This document shows, piece by piece, positions 29,894 through 60,860 of a stretch of DNA of 64,000 nucleotides. This DNA comes from an uncultured Planctomycetia bacterium (GTDB lineage Bacteria; Omnitrophota; Gorgyraeia; Tantalellales; Tantalellaceae): positions 145,872-209,871 of the forward strand of contig CAYQUS010000002.1 in assembly GCA_964421015.1 (NCBI GenBank), read 5' to 3'. Numbering within the stretch: the stretch's first letter is position 1; every line of letters starts with the position of its first letter. The notes under the pieces are model-generated. The model did not search any database. It was not told where the DNA came from and saw only the letters and a program-made list of their open reading frames with translations. Both the position numbers and the translations under genes were made by a program.

Positions 29894-29908
29894 AAACCAC
29901 CTTTCGTA

Positions 29909-29949
29909 CACATTAGTGCCAGGCACCATAGGTGCCTGGCACCAATGTG
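29909..29949. repeat. 41-bp near-perfect palindrome made of two 13-bp GGTGCCWGGCACC palindromes
   Basis: CACATTAGTGCCAGGCACC-AT-AGGTGCCTGGCACCAATGTG. Lies immediately upstream of the hydrolase promoter. Confidence 0.85.
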
Positions 29950-29956
29950 ACGGCAT

Positions 29957-29985
29957 TTGTTATTCACTCCCTGCAAGTGTATACT
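29957..29985 (+). promoter_or_regulatory. sigma70-like promoter (TTGTTA-17-TATACT) giving a leaderless or near-leaderless hydrolase mRNA
   Basis: -35 at 29957-62, -10 at 29980-85. The ATG follows 8 nt after the -10 with no SD. Confidence 0.45.
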
Positions 29986-29993
29986 TTACCCGT

Positions 29994-30827
29994 ATGACAG
30001 GCCTTAAATATAAAAAGTGGACAGTGGAAAGTCCCCGCGGGGCCTTAGTGCTTGTGCACGGTATGGGCGCTGGAACGGAGAGATGGGAAAGCCTTGCCGA
30101 ATACTTTCTTTCGAAAAATATCTCCTCATATGCTCTTTCTCTCCGTGGGTTCGACGGAACCGAAGGCGAGAAGGGGTATGTCGACAGTTTCCAGACGTAC
30201 CATTCCGACATAAAAAAACTTTATGAACTCGCCCGAAGAGAAGTTCCCACAGGTAAGATCTTTCTTCTAGGCGAAAGCATGGGGGCTTTAATAGCCTTTG
30301 ACCATGCCGCGCAAGGCGAGGGGCTTTTTGATGGATATATCCTTATTTCCCCGGCTTTCGGGAGCCGGCTTAAGTTCAATCCGCACGTGTATCTCTTTAT
30401 TCTTCTCTCGATGCTGTTCTTCCCTCGAAAACAGTTCAAAATGCCGTTTAATTCCAGGATGTGCACGAGTGACAGAGGAGAGATAGAGAAAATAGAAAAA
30501 GATCCGGCGGAACACCGGTATGCTACAGGTAGCCTTCTCCGGGAAATACTCAAAAAACAGGTGATGGCAAAAAAACTGGCTAAAAAAATAACTTCGCCGG
30601 TACTTTTTCTTTTATCCGAGGAAGACGAGTTAGCGGACCCCGCGCGGAGTGAGAAGGTTTTTGAAGTTTTAGGACACATTGGTGCCAGGCACCACAGGTG
30701 CCAGGCACCAAACAACAACCTTAAGAAGTATCCTGGGATGAAGCATGCGCTGTCTGTAGAGGCGGGGCGCGAGAGGGTTTTTGAGGATATTTATGAGTGG
30801 GGACAGAAGTTAGAAGGGAGAAAGTAG
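29994..30827 (+). CDS. alpha/beta-hydrolase (lysophospholipase/monoacylglycerol lipase-like)
   Basis: HGMGAGTERW and GESMGALIAF (GxSxG) motifs. The C-terminal region carries an in-frame palindromic repeat insertion encoding HIGARHHRCQAPNN. Confidence 0.75.
   Translation: MTGLKYKKWTVESPRGALVLVHGMGAGTERWESLAEYFLSKNISSYALSLRGFDGTEGEKGYVDSFQTYHSDIKKLYELARREVPTGKIFLLGESMGALIAFDHAAQGEGLFDGYILISPAFGSRLKFNPHVYLFILLSMLFFPRKQFKMPFNSRMCTSDRGEIEKIEKDPAEHRYATGSLLREILKKQVMAKKLAKKITSPVLFLLSEEDELADPARSEKVFEVLGHIGARHHRCQAPNNNLKKYPGMKHALSVEAGRERVFEDIYEWGQKLEGRK
30675..30709. repeat. second pair of GGTGCCAGGCACC 13-bp palindromes, inside the 3' end of the hydrolase CDS
   Basis: CACATTGGTGCCAGGCACC-ACA-GGTGCCAGGCACC, read in-frame as GARHHRCQAP. 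Confidence 0.85.
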
Positions 30828-30925
30828 AAAGGAGAAAGAGGAAAGGAGAAATGGGAAAGAGGAGAAAGGGGAAAGTGATAGGTTAAGGTTGAGGTTCAGG
30901 TTGAGAGAGAGGGGGAGTAGAGGGA
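30811..30925 (+). repeat. purine-rich (GGAGAAAGG)n + (AGGTTG)n intergenic repeat module, copy A
   Basis: AGAAGGGAGAAAGTAGAAAGGAGAAAGAGGAAAGGAGAAATGGGAAAGAGGAGAAAGGGGAAAGTGATAGGTTAAGGTTGAGGTTCAGGTTGAG. Its first ~17 nt lie inside the hydrolase CDS (stop at 30825-27). Confidence 0.8.
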
Positions 30926-30928
30926 ACC

Positions 30929-31049
30929 GTCATTCTGAGCCGTAGGCGAAGAATCTAGATCCTTCGGTCGCGTTGCTCCCTCAGGATGACAAGAGAAAGG
31001 GGACTCTCTCAGGATGACAAGTGAAAGGGGGCTCCCCCAGGATGACAAA
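30929..31049 (+). repeat. GTCATTCTGAGC...CTCAGGATGAC hairpin module followed by three tandem CAGGATGACAA units
   Basis: Inverted repeat GTCATTCTGAG / CTCAGGATGAC (30929-30990). CAGGATGACAA recurs at 30982, 31010 and 31038. Confidence 0.75.
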
Positions 31050-31134
31050 TAGGGTTGTCGCAATAACGCCGAACGCTATAACGCAATAACGAATAAGTAT
31101 CGAGAATCGAATATCGTGATGTCGAGGGAGGAGT

Positions 31135-32613
31135 ATGAAGTATATACTTGCGATAGATCAGGGGACTACGGGGTCTCGGGCAGTGATTTACGACAGAAAG
31201 GGGTTTGAGGTTGCCAGTCATTACAACGAATTTAAGCAGTATTTTCCCCATCCTGGGTGGGTAGAGCATGACGCGGATGAAATATGGGAGAGTGTTAATA
31301 AAAGTATACAGAAAGTCCTGTCAAAGATCCCCTCTGAAAATATAGAAGCGATAGGAATAACCAATCAGCGAGAGACGGTGGTTCTTTGGGATAGGGCTAC
31401 GGGAAAACCGGTGACCAAGGCTATAGTCTGGCAGTGCAGAAGAACAGCCGATAGATGCGAAAAGATAAAGCGAAATAAAAAACTCCGGGAAATAATATTC
31501 CAAAAAACAGGACTTCCCGTAGACGCATATTTTTCGGCGAGCAAAATAGAGTGGCTTTTGAGAAGCCATCCTAATATAAGGAAAAAAGCCGATAGAGGCG
31601 ATATTGTTTTCGGCACGATGGATTCGTGGCTTCTCTGGAAACTTACAGGGGGAAAGGCTCATGCCACGGACCACACGAACGCTTCAAGGACAATGCTTTT
31701 TAATATAAACACTAAAAAGTGGGACAAAGAGCTTCTTCGTGTTTTTAATGTTCCGGAAGCGATGACGCCCGAAGTAAAGAAATCGTCGGGTGTTTTTGGT
31801 TACACTGAAAAAATAGGCTGGCTAAAAGCGGGGATCCCTATCTCCGGGATCGCTGGAGACCAGCAGGCGGCGCTTTTCGGCCAGGCATGTTTTAATAAAG
31901 GAGACATAAAGAACACTTACGGCACGGGATGTTTTATGCTTCTTAATTCCGGAAAGAAAAAACCTAAAGGTAAAAACGGGCTAATAATTACTTTGGGATG
32001 CGGAAAAACCGGGGAACCGGTTTATGTTCTTGAGGGGGCTATTTTCATAGCGGGAGCGGCGATACAATGGCTTAGGGATTATCTTGGCATATTGTCATCC
32101 TCGGCTGAGTCGAGAGAAATGGCCGAAAAAGTTAAAGATAACGGAGGGGTGTATTTTGTGCCGGCTCTTGTGGGGCTTGGAGCCCCGCACTGGAAAAGCG
32201 ACGCAAGAGGTCTTATAACCGGAATAACACGCGGAACAAAAAGAGAGCATATAGTCAGAGCCGCTATAGAGGCGATGTGCTATCAGACAAAAGACGTTCT
32301 TGATGTAATGAAAAAAGAGGCCGGCGTGAATGTAAAGTCTTTAAAAATAGACGGCGGCGCGGCGAAGAATGATTTTTTGTGCGCTTTTCAATCTGATATA
32401 CTCGGGATGGATGTTGTGAGGCCCAGAGTTACGGAAACAACTTCTTTAGGAGCGGCGTATTTGGCGGGGCTCGGGACAGGGTACTGGAAAAATACCGGGG
32501 AGATAAGAAAGTGTTGGAAAGCCGATAAGGTGTTCCAGCCGGCCATGAAGCCGGCGAAACGCGAAGCGCTTATCGATGGATGGGAAAAGGCGGTGGCGAG
32601 GGCCGTGTTGTAG
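31135..32613 (+). CDS. glpK: glycerol kinase
   Basis: ILAIDQGTTGSRAVIYD...; FGGY-family motifs throughout. Confidence 0.9.
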   Translation: MKYILAIDQGTTGSRAVIYDRKGFEVASHYNEFKQYFPHPGWVEHDADEIWESVNKSIQKVLSKIPSENIEAIGITNQRETVVLWDRATGKPVTKAIVWQCRRTADRCEKIKRNKKLREIIFQKTGLPVDAYFSASKIEWLLRSHPNIRKKADRGDIVFGTMDSWLLWKLTGGKAHATDHTNASRTMLFNINTKKWDKELLRVFNVPEAMTPEVKKSSGVFGYTEKIGWLKAGIPISGIAGDQQAALFGQACFNKGDIKNTYGTGCFMLLNSGKKKPKGKNGLIITLGCGKTGEPVYVLEGAIFIAGAAIQWLRDYLGILSSSAESREMAEKVKDNGGVYFVPALVGLGAPHWKSDARGLITGITRGTKREHIVRAAIEAMCYQTKDVLDVMKKEAGVNVKSLKIDGGAAKNDFLCAFQSDILGMDVVRPRVTETTSLGAAYLAGLGTGYWKNTGEIRKCWKADKVFQPAMKPAKREALIDGWEKAVARAVL

Positions 32614-32689
32614 AGAGAAGTAGAAAGAGGGAAGGAGAAAGTGGAAAAGGATAGGTTTAGGCCCAGGTTCAGGTTGAGCCGAAGGGGTG
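32614..32689 (+). repeat. purine-rich + AGGTTSAG repeat module, copy B (after glpK)
   Basis: AGAGAAGTAGAAAGAGGGAAGGAGAAAGTGGAAAAGGATAGGTTTAGGCCCAGGTTCAGGTTGAGCC. Confidence 0.75.
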
Positions 32690-32710: not shown

Positions 32711-32851
32711 CAGCAGATTTCCGATATTTCCGGAAGGGCGTTGGTCGACCGAGCGGGCACGGATTCCGAGGGAGAGCGAGGGAGAGCATCGAGCGAGATT
32801 TCCACGCCGGGGAAATCGAGCGTCCCTGAAGGGAATGTCGGAAATCTGCTG
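32711..32851 (-). repeat. solo MITE-like copy of the 55-kb repeat unit, bounded by 18-bp terminal inverted repeats
   Basis: CAGCAGATTTCCGATATT ... AATGTCGGAAATCTGCTG. The interior aligns in reverse orientation to 55090-55235 (GAGCGGGCACGGAT..GGAGAGCGAGGGAGA..CGAGCGAGATTT..GAAAATCGAGCGTCCCTGAAGGGAAT). Confidence 0.8.
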
Positions 32852-34322: not shown

Positions 34323-34510
34323 AAAGAAAAGAGAAGATAGAAGATAGAAAGGAGAAAGAGGAAAGGAGAAAGGGGAAAGAGGAGAAAGGAAAAGGAGAAG
34401 TGAGAAAGCGATAGGTTAAGGTTGAGGTTTAGGTTGAGGTGTTGGGACGTCATTCTGAGCCAAAGGCGAAGAATCTAGATCCTTCGTTCGCTTTGCTCAC
34501 TCAGGATGAC
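34323..34510 (+). repeat. purine-rich + (AGGTTG)n module plus GTCATTCTGAG hairpin module, copy C (after glpA-like)
   Basis: ..GGAGAAAGAGGAAAGGAGAAAGGGGAAAGAGGAGAAAGG..GATAGGTTAAGGTTGAGGTTTAGGTTGAGG.. then CGTCATTCTGAGCCAAAGGCGAAGAATCTAGATCCTTCG..CTCACTCAGGATGACAG. Confidence 0.8.
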
Positions 34511-34588
34511 AGAGAGGGGTTCAACCGGGATTATAGTGCGTTGTTTTTTGGTGCCAGGCGCCGAAGAGAGCAGATATCTTGGAGAAAA

Positions 34589-40224: not shown

Positions 40225-40260
40225 GGCCCCTTCCGGAAAAACCGGGAGGGGCTTTTTTGT
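40225..40260 (+). terminator. attenuator terminator 1
   Basis: GGCCCCTTCCGG-AAAAA-CCGGGAGGGGC followed by TTTTTTG. Confidence 0.6.
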
Positions 40261-42120: not shown

Positions 42121-42403
42121 GACCATAATCGAGATAATAGTGAACAATCATCCGGGCGTGATGTCCCATATAACGGGGCTTTTCGCGAGGAGGGCTTACA
42201 ATCTTGAGGGGATACTGTGCGGCGAAATAGAGGACGGGTCCCGGAGCAGGATGTATCTTCTGGTGGATGAGGACGAGAGGCTGGAACAGATAATAAAACA
42301 GATAGAAAAACTTTATGACGTTATTACAGTTAATGCAAGGGGTGACAGGGACCATACCATATTCAAAAAACTGGATAAGGCTATGGAGATTTTTGGGGGA
42401 TAG
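42104..42403 (+). CDS. ilvN: acetolactate synthase small (ACT-domain) subunit, short form
   Basis: ACT-domain sequence IIEIIVNNHPGVMSHITGLFARRAYNLEGI. 99 aa. Overlaps the end of ilvB. Confidence 0.75.
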   Translation: MKEGSKTIIEIIVNNHPGVMSHITGLFARRAYNLEGILCGEIEDGSRSRMYLLVDEDERLEQIIKQIEKLYDVITVNARGDRDHTIFKKLDKAMEIFGG

Positions 42404-42488
42404 ATTTGGCTAACCGTAAACTGAAGTACTCAAGGTAGAACTTTTTCAAAGTCCTACCTTGAGGCCAAATCTATGGCGTGCCAGAGAG
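42395..42488. repeat. 94-bp direct repeat copy 1 (copy 2 at 42602-42695), containing a long hairpin and the 3'-terminal 15 nt of tRNA-Arg
   Basis: GGGGGATAGATTTGGCTAACCGTAAACTGAAGTACTCAAGGTAGAACTTTTTCAAAGTCCTACCTTGAGGCCAAATCTATGGCGTGCCAGAGAG occurs twice, 207 bp apart. Confidence 0.85.
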
Positions 42489-42680
42489 ATTGTTTCGGGC
42501 TATGATCCTCCTCTTCGGCGGATCATTTGTGGCGGTGTTGTTGGTGGCCGGCATCACCGATCCACCCTTGATTTACTCGCTTTGCTCGTAAATCAAACCA
42601 GGGGGGATAGATTTGGCTAACCGTAAACTGAAGTACTCAAGGTAGAACTTTTTCAAAGTCCTACCTTGAGGCCAAATCTA

Positions 42681-42759
42681 TGGCGTGCCAGAGAGGATTC
42701 GAACCTCCAACCAACGGCTTCGTAGGCCGCTACTCTATCCAGTTGAGCTACTGGCACGC
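42681..42759 (-). tRNA. tRNA-Arg (anticodon ACG)
   Basis: The reverse complement folds into a cloverleaf: acceptor GCGTGCC, anticodon loop CTACGAA, T-arm GGTTCGAATCC, CCA encoded. Confidence 0.8.
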
Positions 42760-42819: not shown

Positions 42820-42880
42820 TTGAGGGGAAGACCGGTAAAAAATAAGGAGAAAGGTAGAATAGGGAGGGAGGAAATGACAG
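42820..42880 (+). repeat. purine-rich + AGGTTAAAGTTGAG module, copy D
   Basis: AATAAGGAGAAAGGTAGAATAGGGAGGGAGGAAATGACAGGTTAAAGTTGAGCC. Confidence 0.65.
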
Positions 42881-42916
42881 GTTAAAGTTGAGCCGACCGG
42901 CCGGGCATTGTATAAT
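42881..42916 (+). promoter_or_regulatory. sigma70-like promoter TTGAGC-17-TATAAT for tadA
   Basis: The -35 is contributed by the AGGTTRAG repeat module. -10 at 42911-16. Confidence 0.4.
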
Positions 42917-43389: not shown

Positions 43390-43432
43390 GAAGCAGTAAG
43401 GAGGAAGGGTCAGGTTAAGGTTGAGTATACCA
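43390..43432 (+). repeat. short purine-rich + AGGTTAAGGTTGAG module, copy E (after tadA)
   Basis: GGAAGCAGTAAGGAGGAAGGGTCAGGTTAAGGTTGAGT. Confidence 0.6.
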
Positions 43433-49445: not shown

Positions 49446-50053
49446 AAAAAGATTTTCTGAAAGGGCTTTGGAAAGAGAATCCCATTTTCGTACAGGTCCT
49501 CGGGACATGTCCCACCCTGGCAGTAACTACAAAAGCAGTGTTCGGTCTTTCCATGGGGATAGCCACAACGTTCGTTCTGATCTCATCAAGCTTAGTTGTA
49601 TCTCTCATAAGGAAAGTCGTTCCGCCGCAGGTGAGAATACCCATGTTTACCGTTATAATAGCCACTTTTGTCACCGCCGCCGATTATTTCCTTAAGGCCA
49701 ATTTTTATGAGATAAGCAAGGCCCTGGGGCCGTATGTTCCTCTTATAGTAGTGAACTGCATAATACTCGGCAGAGCCGAAGCTTTTGCTTCCAAGAACGG
49801 GCCGGTAAGGTCGGTGCTGGACGCTCTCGGAATGGGGCTAGGGTTTACCTCGGCGCTACTGGTCCTGGGCAGCTGCCGTGAGATACTCGGTTCCGGGGCT
49901 ATTTTCGGATTGAGGGTTATGCCGCAGGGGTTCACCAACTGGATAGTGATGATACTTCCCGCGGGAGCGTTCATTACTTTCGGACTTCTGGTAGGGGTTT
50001 TTAACACGGTTGACGGAATGATCAAGAAGAGGGAAGAGGTTAAGGTTAAGTAG
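49442..50053 (+). CDS. rnfE: Rnf complex subunit E
   Basis: RnfA/RnfE-family 6-TM protein (NPIFVQVLGTCP). Position is after rnfG. Confidence 0.8.
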   Translation: MKKDFLKGLWKENPIFVQVLGTCPTLAVTTKAVFGLSMGIATTFVLISSSLVVSLIRKVVPPQVRIPMFTVIIATFVTAADYFLKANFYEISKALGPYVPLIVVNCIILGRAEAFASKNGPVRSVLDALGMGLGFTSALLVLGSCREILGSGAIFGLRVMPQGFTNWIVMILPAGAFITFGLLVGVFNTVDGMIKKREEVKVK

Positions 50054-50174
50054 GAAGAGAGGAGAAATAAGTAGTAAGTAGTAAGGAATAAGGAGTAAGG
50101 AGTAAGGAGAAAAGAGAAAAGAAGGTTGAGGCAGTGAGGGGATCAAGGTTCAGGTTGAGGTTTAGAGGGGAGCG
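50054..50174 (+). repeat. purine-rich (AGTAAGGAG)n + AGGTTCAGGTTGAGGTT module, copy F, inside the rnf operon between rnfE and rnfA
   Basis: GGAAGAGAGGAGAAATAAGTAGTAAGTAGTAAGGAATAAGGAGTAAGGAGTAAGGAGAAAAGAGAAAAGAAGGTTGAGG..GATCAAGGTTCAGGTTGAGGTTTAGAGGGGAGCG directly before the rnfA ATG. Confidence 0.8.
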
Positions 50175-50796: not shown

Positions 50797-51603
50797 ATGG
50801 AAAATTTAGTAGTAACGTCGGTAATAAGCATGGTTTTTCTGGCGGTTTTTTTCGCCGTGGTGCTGGCTTTTGCCGATAAGAAATTCAAGGTCCAGGAAGA
50901 TCCCCGCGTGGTAGGCGTATACGGTTTTTTGCCTCACGTTAACTGCGGGGCATGCGGGTATTTAAGCTGCCACGATTTCGCCGAACGCATAATAAAAGAA
51001 GGAGAGAGCCCTCTTAAGTGCAGAGTGCTCGGAGAAGAAGCAAGAGAAGGTCTTTTGAATTATCTGGGGCATGATTCCGGCGAGACTTTTCCGCATGTGC
51101 CTCTTGTAAGGTGTTCCGCAAGATGCGCTAATAAGCCCTCTTCCGCGGAATACCTGGGTATACGCACCTGCCGCGGCGCGGCGGTATCTTTCTCGGGAGG
51201 GATGGAATGCGAGTACGGTTGCATGGGGTTCGGGGATTGTGTTAAAGCCTGTCCTTTCGGAGCGCTTGAGATAGTCGACGGGCTTCCCGAAGTCGATCAG
51301 GCGAAATGCACCGGGTGCGGCAAATGCGCCTCGGCCTGTCCCAAGGGGATAATAACAATAGCGGAAAAAAGGAACGAAAAGGTCTTTTATGTGGCCTGTT
51401 CCACTCATGACGGGGCTTTGAGAGTGCGAAAAATATGCGCCGTTGGCTGTATAGCTTGCGGCATCTGCGAAAAGATCTCCAAAGAGGGGTTTTTCTCGGT
51501 TAAAGACAACCTTTCGAGAGAGGATCTTTCTAAACAGGCCAGGCAGGAAGAAGTAGCCGCGGTGGCCGCGAAGTGCCCCACTAAGGTAATAAAAACCGCG
51601 TAA
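50797..51603 (+). CDS. rnfB: Rnf complex subunit B
   Basis: N-terminal TM anchor, a CxxC...C cluster and two 4Fe-4S ferredoxin motifs. Confidence 0.8.
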   Translation: MENLVVTSVISMVFLAVFFAVVLAFADKKFKVQEDPRVVGVYGFLPHVNCGACGYLSCHDFAERIIKEGESPLKCRVLGEEAREGLLNYLGHDSGETFPHVPLVRCSARCANKPSSAEYLGIRTCRGAAVSFSGGMECEYGCMGFGDCVKACPFGALEIVDGLPEVDQAKCTGCGKCASACPKGIITIAEKRNEKVFYVACSTHDGALRVRKICAVGCIACGICEKISKEGFFSVKDNLSREDLSKQARQEEVAAVAAKCPTKVIKTA

Positions 51604-51613
51604 CGGAGAAAGC

Positions 51614-52228
51614 ATGCCAGAGAAAATAAAAATAGCCGTGCTGGTTTCGGGTAACGGCAGCAATCTCCAGGCGATAATAGACGCCCAGGCAAATGGCGAC
51701 CTGGGGCCTGCCGAGATCGGGATAGTCATAAGCGATAAACCGGAAGCGTTGGCTCTCGAGAGAGCCGCCAAGGCCGGGATAAAGTCCGTGGTCGTCGAGA
51801 AGACCAAAGAGCTTTCCAGGGAAGAGTATGACGAGAAGCTTGCCGTTATCCTGAGAGAAGAGGAGATAAACCTTATTGTGCTGGCCGGGTTCATGAGGGT
51901 GCTAGGGGAAAAGTTTGTCGGCGCGTTCAAATGGAAGATAATCAACATCCATCCCGCGCTTCTCCCGGCTTTCAAGGGAACCCATGGCATAGCCGACGCG
52001 TTCCTCTACGGGGTAAAGGTAACGGGCGTGACGGTGCACTTTGTGGACGAAGGGGTTGATTCCGGACCCATAATAGCGCAGAGGGCGGTAAAAATAGAGG
52101 ACACTGATACGCTTGGGTCCCTTGAGGAAAGGATGCATCACCGGGAACACGAGCTTTATCCGGAAGTGATACGCCTTTTCGCCGAAGGCAGGATAAAACT
52201 GGAAGGAAGAAAAGTAAAGATAGTCTAA
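51614..52228 (+). CDS. purN: phosphoribosylglycinamide formyltransferase
   Basis: IAVLVSGNGSNLQAI and NIHPALLPAFKG motifs. Confidence 0.9.
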   Translation: MPEKIKIAVLVSGNGSNLQAIIDAQANGDLGPAEIGIVISDKPEALALERAAKAGIKSVVVEKTKELSREEYDEKLAVILREEEINLIVLAGFMRVLGEKFVGAFKWKIINIHPALLPAFKGTHGIADAFLYGVKVTGVTVHFVDEGVDSGPIIAQRAVKIEDTDTLGSLEERMHHREHELYPEVIRLFAEGRIKLEGRKVKIV

Positions 52229-52233
52229 AATAA

Positions 52234-53792
<1,559 letters not shown>

Positions 53793-53817
53793 TTTTTGTC
53801 CGCTTTCAGGAAAGGTC

Positions 53818-54738
53818 CTATCTAGGGTAGATCTTAAGCCCGGATGTGGCTCCGCGAGAAGAACAGACCATGGCGGCAAGCCGGGAAGCGAACGCCAGAT
53901 TAAGAGTCATTTCGTTCCAGAAAGCCTCTTTCCCTTCAAGACAATATCTTAAGATGAGACCCGCGGTGAAAGCGTCACCTGCCCCTATGGTGTCCACAAC
54001 ATCTACTTTTACCGCCGGGAATTTAAGAATGTCGCGGCCGTCCCAGTAGAGGGAGCCGTCCTCTCCCATTGTCAGGATGGTTTTTCCGGGAAGTTTCCTG
54101 AGAGCGGAAGGCAAAGTCTTTTTCCCCGTTATTCCCATAGCATCGGAAGCGCTCAGCTTTATCACGTCGGCCAGTTCAAAAAACTTTTCCACGCGCCGGC
54201 GCGCCGTGCGTTTGTCTTTAATTCGGGATTCTCTCCAGTTGGGGTCGTATGTAGCGAACATACGTTTTTCCTTCGCCGCTTCCATCATCTCAAGAGCGCT
54301 TTCGAAAGTGAAATCGGAGTAGGAGAAAGATGACCCGGTATGAAAAACCCCGTTTTCCGAAAACGACGAAAGAAGCGTCTTAGAGGGCGACAGCGCTATT
54401 TCCGGTCCGGTATCTCTGTAGAAAGCGTAGGAGGAATCGCCCTTACTGTCTATGCGGGCTATGGCAAGAGCTGTTTTGAGCCGGTCGTCCCTTTTGATAT
54501 GTCTTGTGGATATTTTCTCTTTGCGCATAACATCGACCAAGCTGTCCGAAAGAAAATCAGAGGCAAGGCGGGAAACGACCGACACATCCAGGCCCAGGCG
54601 GGCCAGCATGATGGAAACATTGAATACCGATCCTCCCGGACAGGCTTCCATTGAGTAGCCGCCTTCGGAGTTCGGCCTTGTGATAACAAGGTCATACGCT
54701 ATGTTCCCGCAGCAGAATACGCGTTTTTTGCGTGCCAT
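53818..54738 (-). CDS. PfkB-family carbohydrate kinase
   Basis: N-terminus FCCGNIAYDLV and C-terminus DVVDTIGAGDAFTAG, the anion-hole GAGD motif. Confidence 0.75.
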   Translation of the reverse strand: MARKKRVFCCGNIAYDLVITRPNSEGGYSMEACPGGSVFNVSIMLARLGLDVSVVSRLASDFLSDSLVDVMRKEKISTRHIKRDDRLKTALAIARIDSKGDSSYAFYRDTGPEIALSPSKTLLSSFSENGVFHTGSSFSYSDFTFESALEMMEAAKEKRMFATYDPNWRESRIKDKRTARRRVEKFFELADVIKLSASDAMGITGKKTLPSALRKLPGKTILTMGEDGSLYWDGRDILKFPAVKVDVVDTIGAGDAFTAGLILRYCLEGKEAFWNEMTLNLAFASRLAAMVCSSRGATSGLKIYPR

Positions 54739-54867
54739 GACAGATAATGATATCATCACTTTGCCGGTTTTACAACTTTTCCATTCGTTTTTGGTTTTCT
54801 CCGCCAGTTTGCCCTTGCGCGAGTGAATGGTATCTGATATAATTACGCCTCGGTACCTGAAAATTGA

Positions 54868-54942
54868 CGCGGGGTGGAGCAGAGGTAGCTCGTGAGGCTC
54901 ATAACCTCAAGGTCGAGGGTTCGATTCCCTCCCCCGCAACCA
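54868..54942 (+). tRNA. initiator tRNA-Met (anticodon CAU)
   Basis: Starts CGCGGGG with C1:A72 mismatch. Near-identical to the E. coli tRNA-fMet acceptor, D and T arms. Anticodon loop CTCATAA. CCA encoded. Confidence 0.8.
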
Positions 54943-55027
54943 ATATAAATATAGCGGAGATGGTCATTTACGACTGTCTCCGTTTCTTTTTTGGTTCCGA
55001 GTATAGATGTGTCCGCGCACCTGTTTC

Positions 55028-55583
55028 TCTTGTCATTCTGAGAATCTATAACTTTCGGTTTCCGCGGCTGAAGTACCGATGTGGCTGTCAAATGCCCGAT
55101 ATTCCCTTCAGGGACGCTCGATTTTCCCGGCGAGAAAATCTCGCTCGGAGGTCTCCCTCGCTCTCCCTTAGGGCTTTTGCCCTAGGGATCCGTGCCCGCT
55201 CGGGAGACCAACGCCCTTCCGGGAACACCGGGCATTTGCCTGAAAAAGACGCCTTTTTCACGGCCGAGGTGGCTTGTCATTCTGAGAATCTATAACTTTC
55301 GGTTTCCGCGGCTGAAGTACCGATGTGGCTGTCAAATGCCCGATATTCCCTTCAGGGACGCTCGATTTTCCCGGCGAGAAAATCTCGCTCGGAGGTCTCC
55401 CTCGCTCTCCCTTAGGGCTTTTGCCCTAGGGATCCGTGCCCGCTCGGGAGACCAACGCCCTTCCGGGAACATCGGGCATTTGCCCGAAGAAGACGCCTTT
55501 TTCACAGCCGAGGTGTCTTGTCATTCTGAGAATCTATAACTTTCGGTTTCCGCGGCTGAAGTTCCGAGGCGGCTGTCAAATGC
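55028..55583 (+). repeat. tandem array of about 2.3 copies of a ~245-bp structured repeat unit
   Basis: Units at 55028-55272, 55273-55516 and a partial one at 55517-55583 are near-identical. Each contains the GTCATTCTGAGAATCTA module and a TIR-like pair CAAATGCCCGATATTCC / GGAACACCGGGCATTTG. Confidence 0.85.
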
Positions 55584-55702
55584 ACTCAACCCGAACCTGC
55601 TTTTTGGCGACCTTCTAATTGACACCGCATACACAGGTATGATATAAAAAAGGTTCCCGGAGGGGTTCCCGCCGGAAAAACTATTAAACCGAGGTGCGGC
55701 AA

Positions 55703-56995
55703 ATGATAAAAAGATATTCAAGGCCCGAAATGGCCCGTATCTGGGATGAGAAAAACCGGTTCCAGAAGATGCTCGACGTTGAAATACTGGCATGCGAAGC
55801 CTTTGCCGAACTTAATATAATACCCGCCTCTGCCGCAAAGACGATAAAGGAAAAAGCGGCTTTCAGCGTAGATCGGATCAACGAGATAGAGCGCGTGACC
55901 AATCACGATGTTGTGGCCTTCATAAAAAGCGTTTCCGAGAACGTGGGCGAAGACGCCAGGTATTTTCATTACGGCCTTACTTCGAGCGATGTTCTGGATA
56001 CGGCGCTTTCCATACAGATGGTCGAGGCCGCCGATATACTGATAAGGGATATTGAGGAGCTCATAAATGCCCTTAAGAACAAGGCCATCGAGCACAAAAA
56101 AACCCCGATGATGGGCAGGTCTCACGGTGTTCACGCCGAACCCATATCTTTCGGCCTTAAGATGGCTCTTTATTACAGGGAAATGCAGCGCAATCTCGAG
56201 AGGATGAAGTCGGCCAGGAAAACCGTAGCTGTGGGAAAGATCTCAGGTTCGGTGGGAACTTTCGCTAATGTAGACCCCGGGGTGGAAGAGTACGTGTGCC
56301 GTAAGCTCGGGTTTGAATGCGCCGGCGTGGCCAATCAGGTTATACAGAGAGACAGGCACGCATATTATCTCAACGTTATAGCCATAACGGGGGCTACTCT
56401 TGAGAAGATAGCTCTCGAGATAAGGGGGCTTCAGAAAACAGAGATAGACGAAGTACAGGAATTTTTCGGCAAAGGGCAGACGGGGTCTTCGAGCATGCCC
56501 CACAAGAAAAACCCCATAATATGCGAAAGGATCACGGGGCTTGCCCGTATACTCAGAGCCAACGCCATGGCCGCCATAGAGAACGTGGCCTTGTGGCATG
56601 AAAGGGACATTTCGCACTCCTCGGTGGAACGGGTTATCCTCCCGGATTCCACTATACTTCTCGATTACATGCTGGACAAGGCGAAGGCGCTTATAACCGA
56701 CCTTGTTGTGAACAAGGACAAGATGCTTTCCAACATGGACGCGTCGAGAGGGCTTGTGTACTCTCAGCACATCATGCTTGAACTTATTAAAAAGGGAGCT
56801 ACCAGGCTCGAGGCCTACGACATCATACAGGCCGCCGCGCTGGATTGCCATTCGCGCGGGAAAACCTTCAAAGAGCTTGTGATGAAAGACGCCGGCGTGA
56901 AAAAATATCTCAGCGATAAGGAAATAGAGAACTGTTTCAGTCTGGATTATCATTTGCGTAACGTTGATCGGATATTCAAGAACATAGGACTTTGA
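55703..56995 (+). CDS. purB: adenylosuccinate lyase
   Basis: YSRPEMARIW N-terminus and fumarase/ASL-family signature SSMPHKKNP. GAGGTG RBS before the ATG at 55703. Confidence 0.9.
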   Translation: MIKRYSRPEMARIWDEKNRFQKMLDVEILACEAFAELNIIPASAAKTIKEKAAFSVDRINEIERVTNHDVVAFIKSVSENVGEDARYFHYGLTSSDVLDTALSIQMVEAADILIRDIEELINALKNKAIEHKKTPMMGRSHGVHAEPISFGLKMALYYREMQRNLERMKSARKTVAVGKISGSVGTFANVDPGVEEYVCRKLGFECAGVANQVIQRDRHAYYLNVIAITGATLEKIALEIRGLQKTEIDEVQEFFGKGQTGSSSMPHKKNPIICERITGLARILRANAMAAIENVALWHERDISHSSVERVILPDSTILLDYMLDKAKALITDLVVNKDKMLSNMDASRGLVYSQHIMLELIKKGATRLEAYDIIQAAALDCHSRGKTFKELVMKDAGVKKYLSDKEIENCFSLDYHLRNVDRIFKNIGL

Positions 56996-60288: not shown

Positions 60289-60737
60289 CGATAGGGTCAG
60301 ACCACGGGGGGTTCGCGCTTAAAGAGTTTCTGTCGGGGAAACTTAAAGAATGGGGCTACAAGGTATACGACGCGGGCACTGATTCTCCCGAACCCTGCGA
60401 TTATCCCGTCACAGGGTTCAAATGCGCCTCCAGGGTATCGGAGAAAAAAGAACCGAGGGGCATACTTATCTGCCGGACGGGAGTCGGCATGGCGGTTATA
60501 GCCAATAAACTCCCCGGAGTAAGGGCCGGGGTCTGCGGCAAAGTTTCGGAAGCCGTTTCTGCCAGGGAACACAACGACATAAACCTGCTGGTGCTTGCGG
60601 CCGACAGGATATCTAGAGACGACGCGGAGGCGACGGTAAAAGCGTGGCTCGAGACCCCGGCGCTCAAGGGCCGGCACGCCAAAAGAGTGCGGCTCATCAA
60701 GGAGTATGAGAAGAAAGTGTTCAGGGGGAAGAAATAA
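60273..60737 (+). CDS. rpiB: ribose-5-phosphate isomerase B
   Basis: [15 protein letters not shown] and RpiB/LacAB-family sequence. Confidence 0.85.
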   Translation: MAGKIAIGSDHGGFALKEFLSGKLKEWGYKVYDAGTDSPEPCDYPVTGFKCASRVSEKKEPRGILICRTGVGMAVIANKLPGVRAGVCGKVSEAVSAREHNDINLLVLAADRISRDDAEATVKAWLETPALKGRHAKRVRLIKEYEKKVFRGKK

Positions 60738-60860
60738 GGAGAAAGGAGTAAGGAGAAAGGAGTAAGGAGTAAGAGGAAAAGAAGGGTAAGACAGTGAAAC
60801 TGCCTAGTCGAACTGTCCCCGGCAATAGGGAGGGGACTAAGGTTGAGGTTAAGGGGAAGG
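60738..60860 (+). repeat. purine-rich (AGGAGTAAGGAG)n + AAGGTTGAGGTTAAGG module, copy G, between rpiB and glyA
   Basis: AAGGAGAAAGGAGTAAGGAGAAAGGAGTAAGGAGTAAGAGGAAAAGAAGGGTAAG...GGACTAAGGTTGAGGTTAAGGGGAAGGAG directly before the glyA ATG. Confidence 0.8.

What the first reader, a model, noticed from the sequence alone, without database searches (positions are those of the whole stretch)
55028..55583. A ~140-bp TIR-bounded structured element: one solo copy and a 2.3-copy tandem array beside an initiator tRNA
The interval between tRNA-fMet and purB holds about 2.3 near-identical ~245-bp tandem units. One sub-module reappears in reverse orientation as a solo copy at 32711-32851, between glpK and the glpA-like gene. 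That solo copy is bounded by 18-bp terminal inverted repeats (CAGCAGATTTCCGATATT / AATGTCGGAAATCTGCTG). Relative to the solo copy, the tandem units carry an extra internal palindrome (CCCTAGGGCAAAAGCCCTAAGGG) and a GTCATTCTGAGAATCTATAACTTTCGG module. The GTCATTCTGAG motif is shared with the hairpins at 30929 and 34448. This points to a mosaic MITE-like family in which modules recombine. Tandem amplification next to a tRNA and upstream of purB could affect purB expression. Overlapping ORFs through the repeats translate to near-identical peptides (..DIPFRDARFSRRENLARRSPSLSL..) on both loci. I judge these to be artefacts of nucleotide identity, but that has not been formally excluded.
Basis: seen in the sequence. 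Interest (0 to 1): 0.5.

Follow-up and report, generated by a model that had tools for sequence, protein, structure and literature searches.

The report
Small palindromic repeat element in Omnitrophota
This is a roughly 150-base, hairpin-forming, non-coding repeat that has spread to a few gene spacers in one lineage of uncultivated Omnitrophota bacteria and was locally duplicated beside a tRNA gene: an ordinary kind of selfish bacterial repeat, though a family not described before.

Summary
There is a 244-bp x 2.3 tandem array at 55029-55583 between tRNA-Met and purB. An inverted solo copy of its ~150-nt core ('E') lies at 32711-32851 between glpK and a glpA-like gene.

E is an imperfect palindrome with an 18-22-bp closing stem and a branched interior. 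It matches no Rfam family and no protein family.

Three more copies turned up on two small metagenome contigs. Related Omnitrophota (75-93% protein identity) show the same spacers empty, holding a further-deleted copy, or holding an opposite-oriented fragment. The element is therefore young, lineage-restricted and decaying.

The outer stem differs between copies through fully compensatory changes. All mismatches in the intact copies are G·T on the G-rich strand. This suggests a folded single-strand form matters, as reported for bcr1 repeats of Bacillus.

The array sits between the tRNA terminator and a conserved purB promoter, so an effect on purB is unsupported. Each unit is E plus a co-amplified spacer that contains a decayed copy of another hairpin repeat.

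Best reading: a MITE/bcr1/ERIC-like non-autonomous repeat. Flanking duplications are ambiguous and no transposase partner was found. Coding is rejected. Interest is low to moderate.

The parts
54868..54942 (+). tRNA-Met (CAT), initiator-like (C1/A72 mismatch). Left neighbour of the array.
   Evidence: ARAGORN; Rfam tRNA, 65 bits, with the first acceptor pair flagged as non-standard.
54953..54994 (+). Intrinsic terminator of the tRNA gene: a 13-pair stem followed by TCTTTTTT.
   Evidence: Terminator scan. A terminator occupies the same position in relatives L038, L039 and L041.
55029..55088 (+). Spacer module S2, copy 1 (CTTGTCATTCTGAGAATCTATAACTTTCGG...GGCTGT). It is a decayed relative of the 64-nt GTCATTCTGAG hairpin family.
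   Evidence: (D4).
55089..55238 (-). Element E, copy T1 (150 nt). The G-rich, better-folding strand is the window - strand.
   Evidence: CM 188.8 bits. RNA fold is -92.5 kcal/mol (z -8.8) on the - strand against -76.1 (z -6.95) on the + strand.
55239..55272 (+). Spacer module S1, copy 1 (CCTGAAAAAGACGCCTTTTTCACGGCCGAGGTGG), containing a small A/T hairpin.
55273..55332 (+). Spacer module S2, copy 2.
   Evidence: (D4).
55333..55482 (-). Element E, copy T2. It differs from T1 by one substitution, in the closing stem.
   Evidence: CM 189.9 bits.
55483..55516 (+). Spacer module S1, copy 2, with 4 substitutions relative to copy 1.
55517..55583 (+). Spacer module S2, copy 3 (3 substitutions), plus the first 7 nt of E (CAAATGC). 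This is the end of the array.
   Evidence: (D4).
55619..55648 (+). purB promoter-like site, TTGACA-N18-TATAAA, with TG at the extended -10 position. It is conserved in relatives that lack the array.
   Evidence: Read from the sequence. The same block occurs in L038, L039/L040, L041 and L042. It is not listed by the consensus scan because its last base is A.
55703..56995 (+). purB (adenylosuccinate lyase). Right neighbour of the array.
   Evidence: Pfam Lyase_1 + ADSL_C; homologues are named adenylosuccinate lyase from Candidatus Omnitrophota.
32711..32851 (+). Element E, solo copy (141 nt). The G-rich strand is the window + strand. It lacks the 15-nt tip of the P3 hairpin.
   Evidence: I8; CM 142 bits. 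RNA fold is -69.2 (z -6.1) on the + strand against -51.2 (z -3.5) on the - strand.
30928..30991 (+). 64-nt hairpin repeat GTCATTCTGAG...CTCAGGATGAC. This is the family to which spacer S2 is related.
   Evidence: (D11).
34448..34511 (+). Second copy of the 64-nt hairpin repeat, 92% identical to the first.
   Evidence: (D11).

Best explanation
Element E is a lineage-restricted, non-coding, non-autonomous palindromic intergenic repeat of an uncultivated Candidatus Omnitrophota bacterium. It is of the same kind as MITE-like structured repeats such as bcr1, ERIC and Correia.

Shown:
- E occurs at four or more unrelated intergenic loci, in both orientations.
- At orthologous spacers of close relatives it is absent, further deleted, or present only as an opposite-oriented fragment. 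One copy (L026A) is decaying through stem-breaking transitions.
- The 244-bp x 2.3 array is a local tandem duplication of E together with about 94 nt of flanking spacer, which itself contains a decayed copy of a different hairpin repeat.
- The array lies in a neutral slot between the tRNA-Met terminator and the conserved purB promoter.

Inferred:
- E is propagated in trans by an enzyme that was not found. That enzyme would recognise the conserved inner stem and junction in a folded single strand (the G-rich strand, as ssDNA or RNA). This would explain why the distal closing stem differs between copies yet stays complementary, and why the mismatches in intact copies are all G·T on one strand.
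- Array growth is by unequal recombination or slippage between the repeated 68-nt S2 segment.
- Any effect on host genes is incidental. An example would be a strong RNA hairpin in the glpK-glpA transcript.
For: Repeat family and extra copies:
- establish the family and its further copies.
- The covariance model finds only these copies in 212 kb of window plus related loci.

Organism: searches place it in Omnitrophota.

glpK-glpA spacer in relatives:
- L035 (93% aa) keeps the copy but has lost a further 27 nt between ATCGAGCG direct repeats.
- L032 (88% aa) has only a 33-46-nt fragment, in the opposite orientation.
- L036 (75% aa) has a compact 59-nt spacer with nothing.

tRNA-Met/purB spacer in relatives:
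- It is empty in L038 and L041.
- In L039/L040 it is filled by other repeats.
- L042 has the conserved purB promoter but neither a tRNA gene nor the array upstream.

Structure:
- The closing stem pairs at positions 1-18 in all copies, with at least 10 positions showing fully compensatory differences.
- Overall 93% of cells are paired. P1 has 5 pairs and P4b has 1 pair changed on both sides. The covariation score exceeds 500 of 500 shuffles and all slid controls.
- The G-rich strand folds 15-18 kcal/mol better as RNA in all four intact copies, and better as DNA too.
- There are 8 independent G·T pairs and no A·C mismatch on that strand in the intact copies.

Decay: L026A differs from L026B by about 12%, mostly through C>T changes that break pairs.

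Neutral slot: the tRNA terminator and the conserved promoter bracket the array.

Array is real:
- The units differ by 5 and 3 substitutions.
- An independent assembly (L014, 99.2% identical) confirms the left junction and carries its own spacer variants.

Precedent: bcr1 is ~155 bp, non-conserved in location, transcribed, and shows compensatory changes (PMC3184786).
Against: - No transposase, integrase or reverse transcriptase gene is present in the 64-kb window. No autonomous element with matching ends was found anywhere.
- Flanking direct repeats occur only at L026 (AGCTGATCA three times, pattern DR-E-DR-E-DR). They could equally be left by a tandem duplication. The solo copy and L020 show none.
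- The distal terminal repeats are not conserved in sequence between copies, which is atypical for DDE-transposase MITEs.
- Only about 6 distinct copies are known, so copy number per genome and mobility are inferred from presence/absence, not observed.
- The covariation and G·T strand bias would also fit a functional RNA.
Confidence: 0.62

Rival explanations
1. E is a host-serving structured RNA element that acts in cis. Examples would be a processing, stability or attenuation hairpin within operon transcripts, or a protein-binding platform. On this view it is maintained by selection on the G-rich strand.
For: - Compensatory changes occur in P1 and P4b, and the interior junction is conserved.
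- All mismatches in intact copies are G·U on one strand: 8 against 0, two-sided binomial about 0.008.
- That strand folds much better.
- The solo copy and the L020 copy lie in sense orientation just upstream of a gene, following the same AGGTT-hexad motif.
Against: - The G-rich strand is antisense to both flanking genes at the array and at L026.
- The array lies outside the purB transcript, between a terminator and a promoter.
- The element is absent from relatives at 75-90% protein identity.
- It is being deleted piecemeal in the nearest ones: L035 has lost the P4 hairpin, the solo copy has lost the P3 tip, and L032 keeps only a fragment.
- L026A accumulates stem-breaking changes.
- No Rfam family matches.
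Confidence: 0.18
2. Each E copy, or each array unit, is a stand-alone small RNA gene with its own promoter and terminator. The array would then be a set of tandem sRNA paralogues.
For: Tandem sRNA paralogues are known in other bacteria (general knowledge). The fold is strong and strand-asymmetric.
Against: - No promoter-like or terminator-like site lies inside or beside the units on either strand.
- The flanks are not conserved between loci.
- The family is absent in near relatives.
Confidence: 0.05
3. The repeats encode a small protein (…DIPFRDARFSRRENLARRSPSLSL… or the opposite-strand frame).
For: One frame on each strand stays open through most copies. The two known deletions (15 and 27 nt) are multiples of three.
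Against: - A search of 5.8 billion proteins with the + strand frame found nothing.
- A search of 1.84 billion representatives with the - strand frame gave only one weak, repetitive hit at E=2.4e-4.
- L026A has an in-frame stop.
- There is no consistent start codon or ribosome-binding site.
- The differences between copies are paired stem changes, not synonymous changes.
- Open frames are expected in G+C-rich, stop-poor palindromes.
Confidence: 0.02
4. The 2.3-copy array is an assembly artefact, and the true locus holds one unit or a different number of units.
For: An independent short-read assembly (L014) breaks inside the first E copy, showing that this locus is hard to assemble.
Against: - The units are not identical: there are 5 substitutions between units 1 and 2, and 3 in the third S2.
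- The array has unique junctions on both sides.
- L014 confirms the left junction.
- Adjacent copies also occur at L026, with a 171-nt spacing.
Confidence: 0.1

Closest known systems
bcr1 repeats of the Bacillus cereus group (Økstad 2004; Klevan 2007; summarised in PMC3184786)
   Same: Both are about 150-155 bp, intergenic, non-coding and non-conserved in location between close relatives. Both have a branched or cruciform-like predicted fold maintained by compensatory base changes. In both, some copies lose stability over time.
   Different: There is no sequence similarity to any Rfam family and the phylum is different. bcr1 has consistent 5-bp flanking direct repeats and shown transcription. 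Here flanking repeats are seen at one locus only and transcription is untested.
ERIC / IRU elements of Enterobacteriaceae (~127-bp imperfect palindromes)
   Same: Both are imperfect palindromes of similar size, found in spacers of operons in either orientation. Both can form a long RNA hairpin when co-transcribed.
   Different: E has no similarity to any E. coli genome sequence. ERIC-type elements carry TA flanks. E's distal stem varies between copies.
Correia / NEMIS elements of Neisseria (classical bacterial MITE)
   Same: Both are about 100-157 bp, have terminal inverted repeats of ~20-26 bp, occur as many intergenic insertions, and show internal-deletion variants.
   Different: Correia inverted repeats are conserved in sequence, with a TA duplication and an IHF site. 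In E only the inner ~11 bp of the stem is conserved and the outer ~10 bp co-varies.
BOX elements of Streptococcus pneumoniae (modular, with tandem boxB)
   Same: Both show tandem repetition of sub-modules within an intergenic repeat, and co-occurrence of several small repeat families.
   Different: BOX modules are 45-60 bp in a fixed A-Bn-C order. Here the repeated unit is the whole element plus unrelated spacer.
REP/BIME with RAYT, and IS200/IS605-derived palindromic elements
   Same: Both involve strand-specific recognition of a folded single strand. This would explain the structure-not-sequence conservation and the G·T bias.
   Different: Those hairpins are 20-40 nt with a conserved tetranucleotide. 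E is a 150-nt branched structure, and no Y1 transposase gene was seen.

Membership tests
MITE (non-autonomous, transposase-mobilised) | Terminal inverted repeats | tested here: met
   An 18-22-bp closing stem is present in every copy (I8, 63).
MITE (non-autonomous, transposase-mobilised) | Target-site duplication flanking each copy | tested here: inconclusive
   The 9-mer AGCTGATCA occurs three times around the two L026 copies. No direct repeats flank the solo copy or the L020 copy.
MITE (non-autonomous, transposase-mobilised) | Small, non-coding, multi-copy, and with presence/absence differences between relatives | tested here: met
   E is 141-156 nt. It has no protein homologues. It occupies four loci. 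Empty, deleted or inverted states occur at orthologous sites.
MITE (non-autonomous, transposase-mobilised) | Ends match those of an autonomous insertion sequence in the same genome | not testable with these tools
   The whole source genome is not available. No transposase domain occurs in about 60 window ORFs. No partial match to the ends occurs elsewhere.
MITE (non-autonomous, transposase-mobilised) | Terminal repeat sequence conserved among copies | tested here: not met
   The inner 11 bp are conserved, but positions 12-21 differ between copies through compensatory changes.
bcr1/ERIC-type RNA-structured repeat | Imperfect palindrome of ~130-155 bp with a fold kept by compensatory changes | tested here: met
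bcr1/ERIC-type RNA-structured repeat | Transcribed, with an effect on neighbouring mRNA | not testable with these tools
   No expression data are available. By position, the solo copy lies inside the glp operon spacer and the array lies outside the purB transcript.
bcr1/ERIC-type RNA-structured repeat | Sequence homology to those families | tested here: not met
   There is no Rfam match. There is no match in E. coli genomes, plasmids or phages.
REP/RAYT or IS200/IS605-derived palindromic element | Short (20-40 nt) hairpin with a conserved tetranucleotide, associated with a Y1 transposase | tested here: not met
   E is a 150-nt branched structure. No Y1_Tnp or RAYT domain occurs in the window.
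Integron attC site | Outer core sites RYYYAAC / GTTRRRY with a variable centre | tested here: not met
   Read from the sequences: these cores are absent at the ends. The conservation pattern is the reverse, with a conserved centre and variable ends.
Described RNA family (Rfam 15) | Match to a covariance model | tested here: not met
   Only tRNAs reach the gathering score in the window. Nothing on E appears at E<=10.
Protein-coding gene | Conserved ORF with homologues and coding-type substitution | tested here: not met

The most novel reading that the evidence does not exclude
E may be the strand-specific, structure-recognised substrate of a mobilisation system not yet identified, acting on folded ssDNA or RNA of the G-rich strand. 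Alternatively it may be a self-propagating structured non-coding RNA family peculiar to a clade of Omnitrophota. On either view the conserved three-way junction and inner stem would be the functional core, and the freely co-varying outer stem would merely close it.
Probability: 0.15. Interest if true: 0.55.

Novelty: new member of a known kind. Interest (0 to 1): 0.25.

Why it matters
This adds a first described small structured repeat family for Candidatus Omnitrophota, a phylum known almost only from metagenomes. It also shows that spacers in this lineage are colonised by several short repeat families.

Practical consequences:
- Such repeats break short-read assemblies; L014 ends inside the element.
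- They seed spurious ORF calls.
- They can serve as strain markers.

The compensatory, strand-biased evolution of the closing stem is a modest lead. It hints that a single-stranded folded form is the unit of selection, and strand-specific metatranscriptomes or a full-genome census could test this. No effect on purB or glycerol metabolism is indicated.

Tried and rejected
- **Exact 18-mer scan of 185,579 species genomes.** It returned 11 chance hits only. L002 (Bdellovibrionota) has an unrelated tandem array sharing the 18-mer.
- **Scans of viral contigs and BLAST against plasmids, phages and E. coli genomes.** These gave chance matches or nothing.
- **Weak nhmmer hits on L024, L027 and L018.** They lie inside a protein-coding gene and are coincidental.
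- **Peptide searches with both open frames.** No family was found, so coding is rejected.
- **Exact-protein look-ups of the window's purB and of P0121.** Neither is on record, so the rest of the source genome could not be reached.
- **Test of whether the variable outer stems are pre-existing target hairpins.** No 'empty' hairpins with those arms were found in the held sequences, so this is uninformative.
- **A 17-mer hit at 40229.** It is an ordinary terminator hairpin, not a relic of E.
- **The RNAalifold P4a hairpin (CCGAGCGAGA/UCUCGCCGGG).** It is disfavoured against the alternative P4b (GAUUUUC/GAAAAUC). Two copies break P4a but keep P4b through a compensatory change.
- **Integron attC, retron, self-cleaving ribozyme and 6S-like readings.** These were considered and dropped for lack of defining motifs, neighbouring genes or Rfam matches.

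Full report
**Observation.**
- Tandem Repeats Finder reports one array at 55029-55583, with period 244, 2.3 copies and 97% matches. The repeat finder gives the same units (D1 and D4).
- The array lies between tRNA-Met(CAT) at 54868-54942 and purB, whose ORF starts at 55703. The tRNA's first acceptor pair is non-standard, as in initiator tRNAs.
- A 141-nt inverted copy of the array's core lies at 32711-32851 (I1-I4 and I8). It sits between a FGGY glycerol kinase and a DAO/BFD glycerol-3-phosphate-dehydrogenase-like gene.
- GTCATTCTGAG occurs 8 times with up to 1 mismatch, against 0.73 expected.

**Anatomy.** I call the shared core E.
- In the array, E occupies 55089-55238 and 55333-55482.
- Each 244-bp unit is S2 (60 nt, beginning CTTGTCATTCTGAG), then E (150 nt), then S1 (34 nt).
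- The array ends with a third S2 plus the first 7 nt of E.
- S2 aligns with the 64-nt hairpin repeats at 30928 and 34448 as a shortened, decayed relative. S2 is absent from E copies elsewhere. It is therefore co-amplified flank, not a module of E.
- Units 1 and 2 differ by 5 substitutions, and the third S2 differs by 3.

**Relatives and organism.**
- The best named homologues of the glpA-like protein and of purB are from Candidatus Omnitrophota MAGs.
- An exact 18-mer scan of species-representative genomes gave only chance hits.
- The same scan of metagenome contigs found three informative contigs.
  - L014 is the same species (99.2% identical over window 50941-55223), and that contig breaks inside the first E.
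  - L020 carries one copy.
  - L026 carries two adjacent copies, 171 nt apart.
- A profile HMM and a covariance model found no further copy in 212 kb of window plus related loci.
- There is no match in Rfam, plasmids, phages, E. coli genomes or viral contigs.

**Orthologous sites: the glpK-glpA spacer.**
- A relative with 93% identical GlpA (L035) has the solo copy with the same right flank and the same 15-nt deletion. It has also lost a further 27 nt, the P4 hairpin, between two ATCGAGCG direct repeats.
- A relative at 88% (L032-L034) keeps only a 33-46-nt end fragment, in the opposite orientation.
- A relative at 75% (L036/L037) has a compact 59-nt spacer.

**Orthologous sites: the tRNA-Met/purB spacer.**
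- Relatives at 90% and 88% purB identity (L038, L041) go from the tRNA terminator to the purB promoter with no array.
- L039/L040 have about 480 nt of other repeats there.
- L042 also lacks E.
- E and the array are therefore recent, lineage-specific and unstable.

**Structure.**
- All copies fold into an 18-22-bp closing stem (P1), a short P2, and a junction. The junction bears a long arm (P3) tipped by CCCUAGGGCAAAAGCCCUAAGGG, and a small hairpin (P4).
- The inner 11 bp of P1 are conserved. Positions 12-21 differ between copies at 10 or more positions, always on both arms, so pairing is kept.
- With a hand-specified structure, 93% of cells pair. Six pairs show double changes (five in P1, one in P4b). 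The covariation score exceeds all 500 shuffles and all slid controls.
- The interior helices are invariant and so say nothing either way.
- The G-rich strand is the window + strand for the solo copy and the window - strand for the array. It folds 15-18 kcal/mol better as RNA in all four intact copies, and better as DNA too.
- In the intact copies, every transition-type mismatch is G·T on that strand. That is 8 independent cases against none. The binomial value of about 0.008 is my arithmetic.
- L026A differs from its neighbour L026B by about 12%, mainly through C>T changes that create A·C mismatches, and it folds poorly. This is a decaying copy.

**Coding.**
- One frame per strand stays open in most copies. 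L026A has an in-frame stop, and starts are inconsistent.
- Neither peptide has homologues in 5.8 billion proteins or in 1.84 billion representatives.
- Coding is rejected.

**Transcriptional context.**
- A canonical terminator follows the tRNA at 54953-54994.
- A TTGACA-N18-TATAAA block with an upstream TG lies at 55619-55648. It is conserved in all relatives examined, including those without the array.
- The array therefore lies between a terminator and a promoter, so an effect on purB is not indicated.
- The G-rich strand is sense to its neighbours at the solo and L020 loci, and antisense at the array and L026.
- No promoter-like or terminator-like site belongs to the units themselves.
- No transposase, integrase or reverse transcriptase domain occurs in about 60 window ORFs.

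**Interpretation.**
- The pattern is scattered intergenic copies in both orientations, presence/absence at orthologous sites, piecemeal deletion, and one mutationally decaying copy. This is the signature of a selfish, non-autonomous repeat rather than a host gene.
- The array is best explained by unequal recombination or slippage on the repeated S2 segment.
- The L026 pair shows the 9-mer AGCTGATCA three times (DR-E-DR-E-DR). Its two copies are 12% diverged, while L026B is 96% identical to the window's units. This fits two insertions into one target but does not exclude an old tandem duplication.
- The co-varying outer stem and the G·T bias suggest that a folded single strand is what is recognised or selected. 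This step is inference.

**Comparison and novelty.**
- The closest precedent is bcr1 of the Bacillus cereus group. It is ~155 bp, non-conserved in location, transcribed, and has a cruciform-like fold kept by compensatory changes, with some copies losing stability (PMC3184786).
- ERIC, Correia and BOX share other traits.
- E shares no sequence with any of these. It fails one classical MITE criterion (conserved terminal sequence) and leaves two open (target duplication, partner transposase).
- I rate it a new member of a known kind, of low to moderate interest.

Noticed in passing
window 42395-42488 and 42602-42695: A perfect 94-nt direct repeat with copies 207 nt apart. The second copy includes the last 15 nt of tRNA-Arg(ACG) (42681-42757, - strand). 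The repeat is itself palindromic (ATAGATTTGGC...GCCAAATCTAT around CTCAAGGTAG...CTACCTTGAG). This is either att-like scars of an integrated element or a second tandem duplication beside a tRNA gene.
   Followed up: no
window 30812-30905, 32612-32680, 34346-34440, 42834-42892, 43392-43427, 50026-50167, 60729-60850: Spacers between co-directional genes carry purine-rich heptad runs (AGAAAGG or TAAGGAG, repeated) followed by AGGTTN hexad runs. AGGTTNAGGTT occurs 12 times, all on the + strand, against 0.22 expected. In relative L032 the hexads start at the glpK stop codon. In relative L036 the same operon has compact spacers without them. Their function is unknown.
   Followed up: partly
window 30928-31050 and 34448-34511; L039/L040 8260-8321; L020 1-32; L041 4830-5230: A 64-nt hairpin repeat, GTCATTCTGAG...CTCAGGATGAC, is present in several related Omnitrophota at different spacers. 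At 30976-31048 it is followed by a 28-nt x 2.6 tandem of its right arm.
   Followed up: partly
window 29902-29949 and 30668-30711; L032 7160-7205; L039 9560-9960: This is another palindromic repeat family (TGGTGCCAGGCACC...GGTGCCTGGCACCA). In the window, one copy lies at the 5' edge of the alpha/beta-hydrolase ORF 29916-30827 and one lies inside its 3' part.
   Followed up: no
L002 5160-5800 (Bdellovibrionota MAG JBMNIF010000001.1): This is an unrelated tandem array of ~72/145-nt units (…ACGGAGGTAAAAA…CCCTTCAGGGACGCTCGAACGGG…). It shares only the 18-mer used for the scan.
   Followed up: no
window, whole: There is a strong purine excess on the + strand: GC skew is about +0.1 to +0.24 and AT skew is positive in most 2-kb bins. 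Nearly all genes are on that strand. As a result, long spurious ORFs appear on the - strand opposite real genes.
   Followed up: partly
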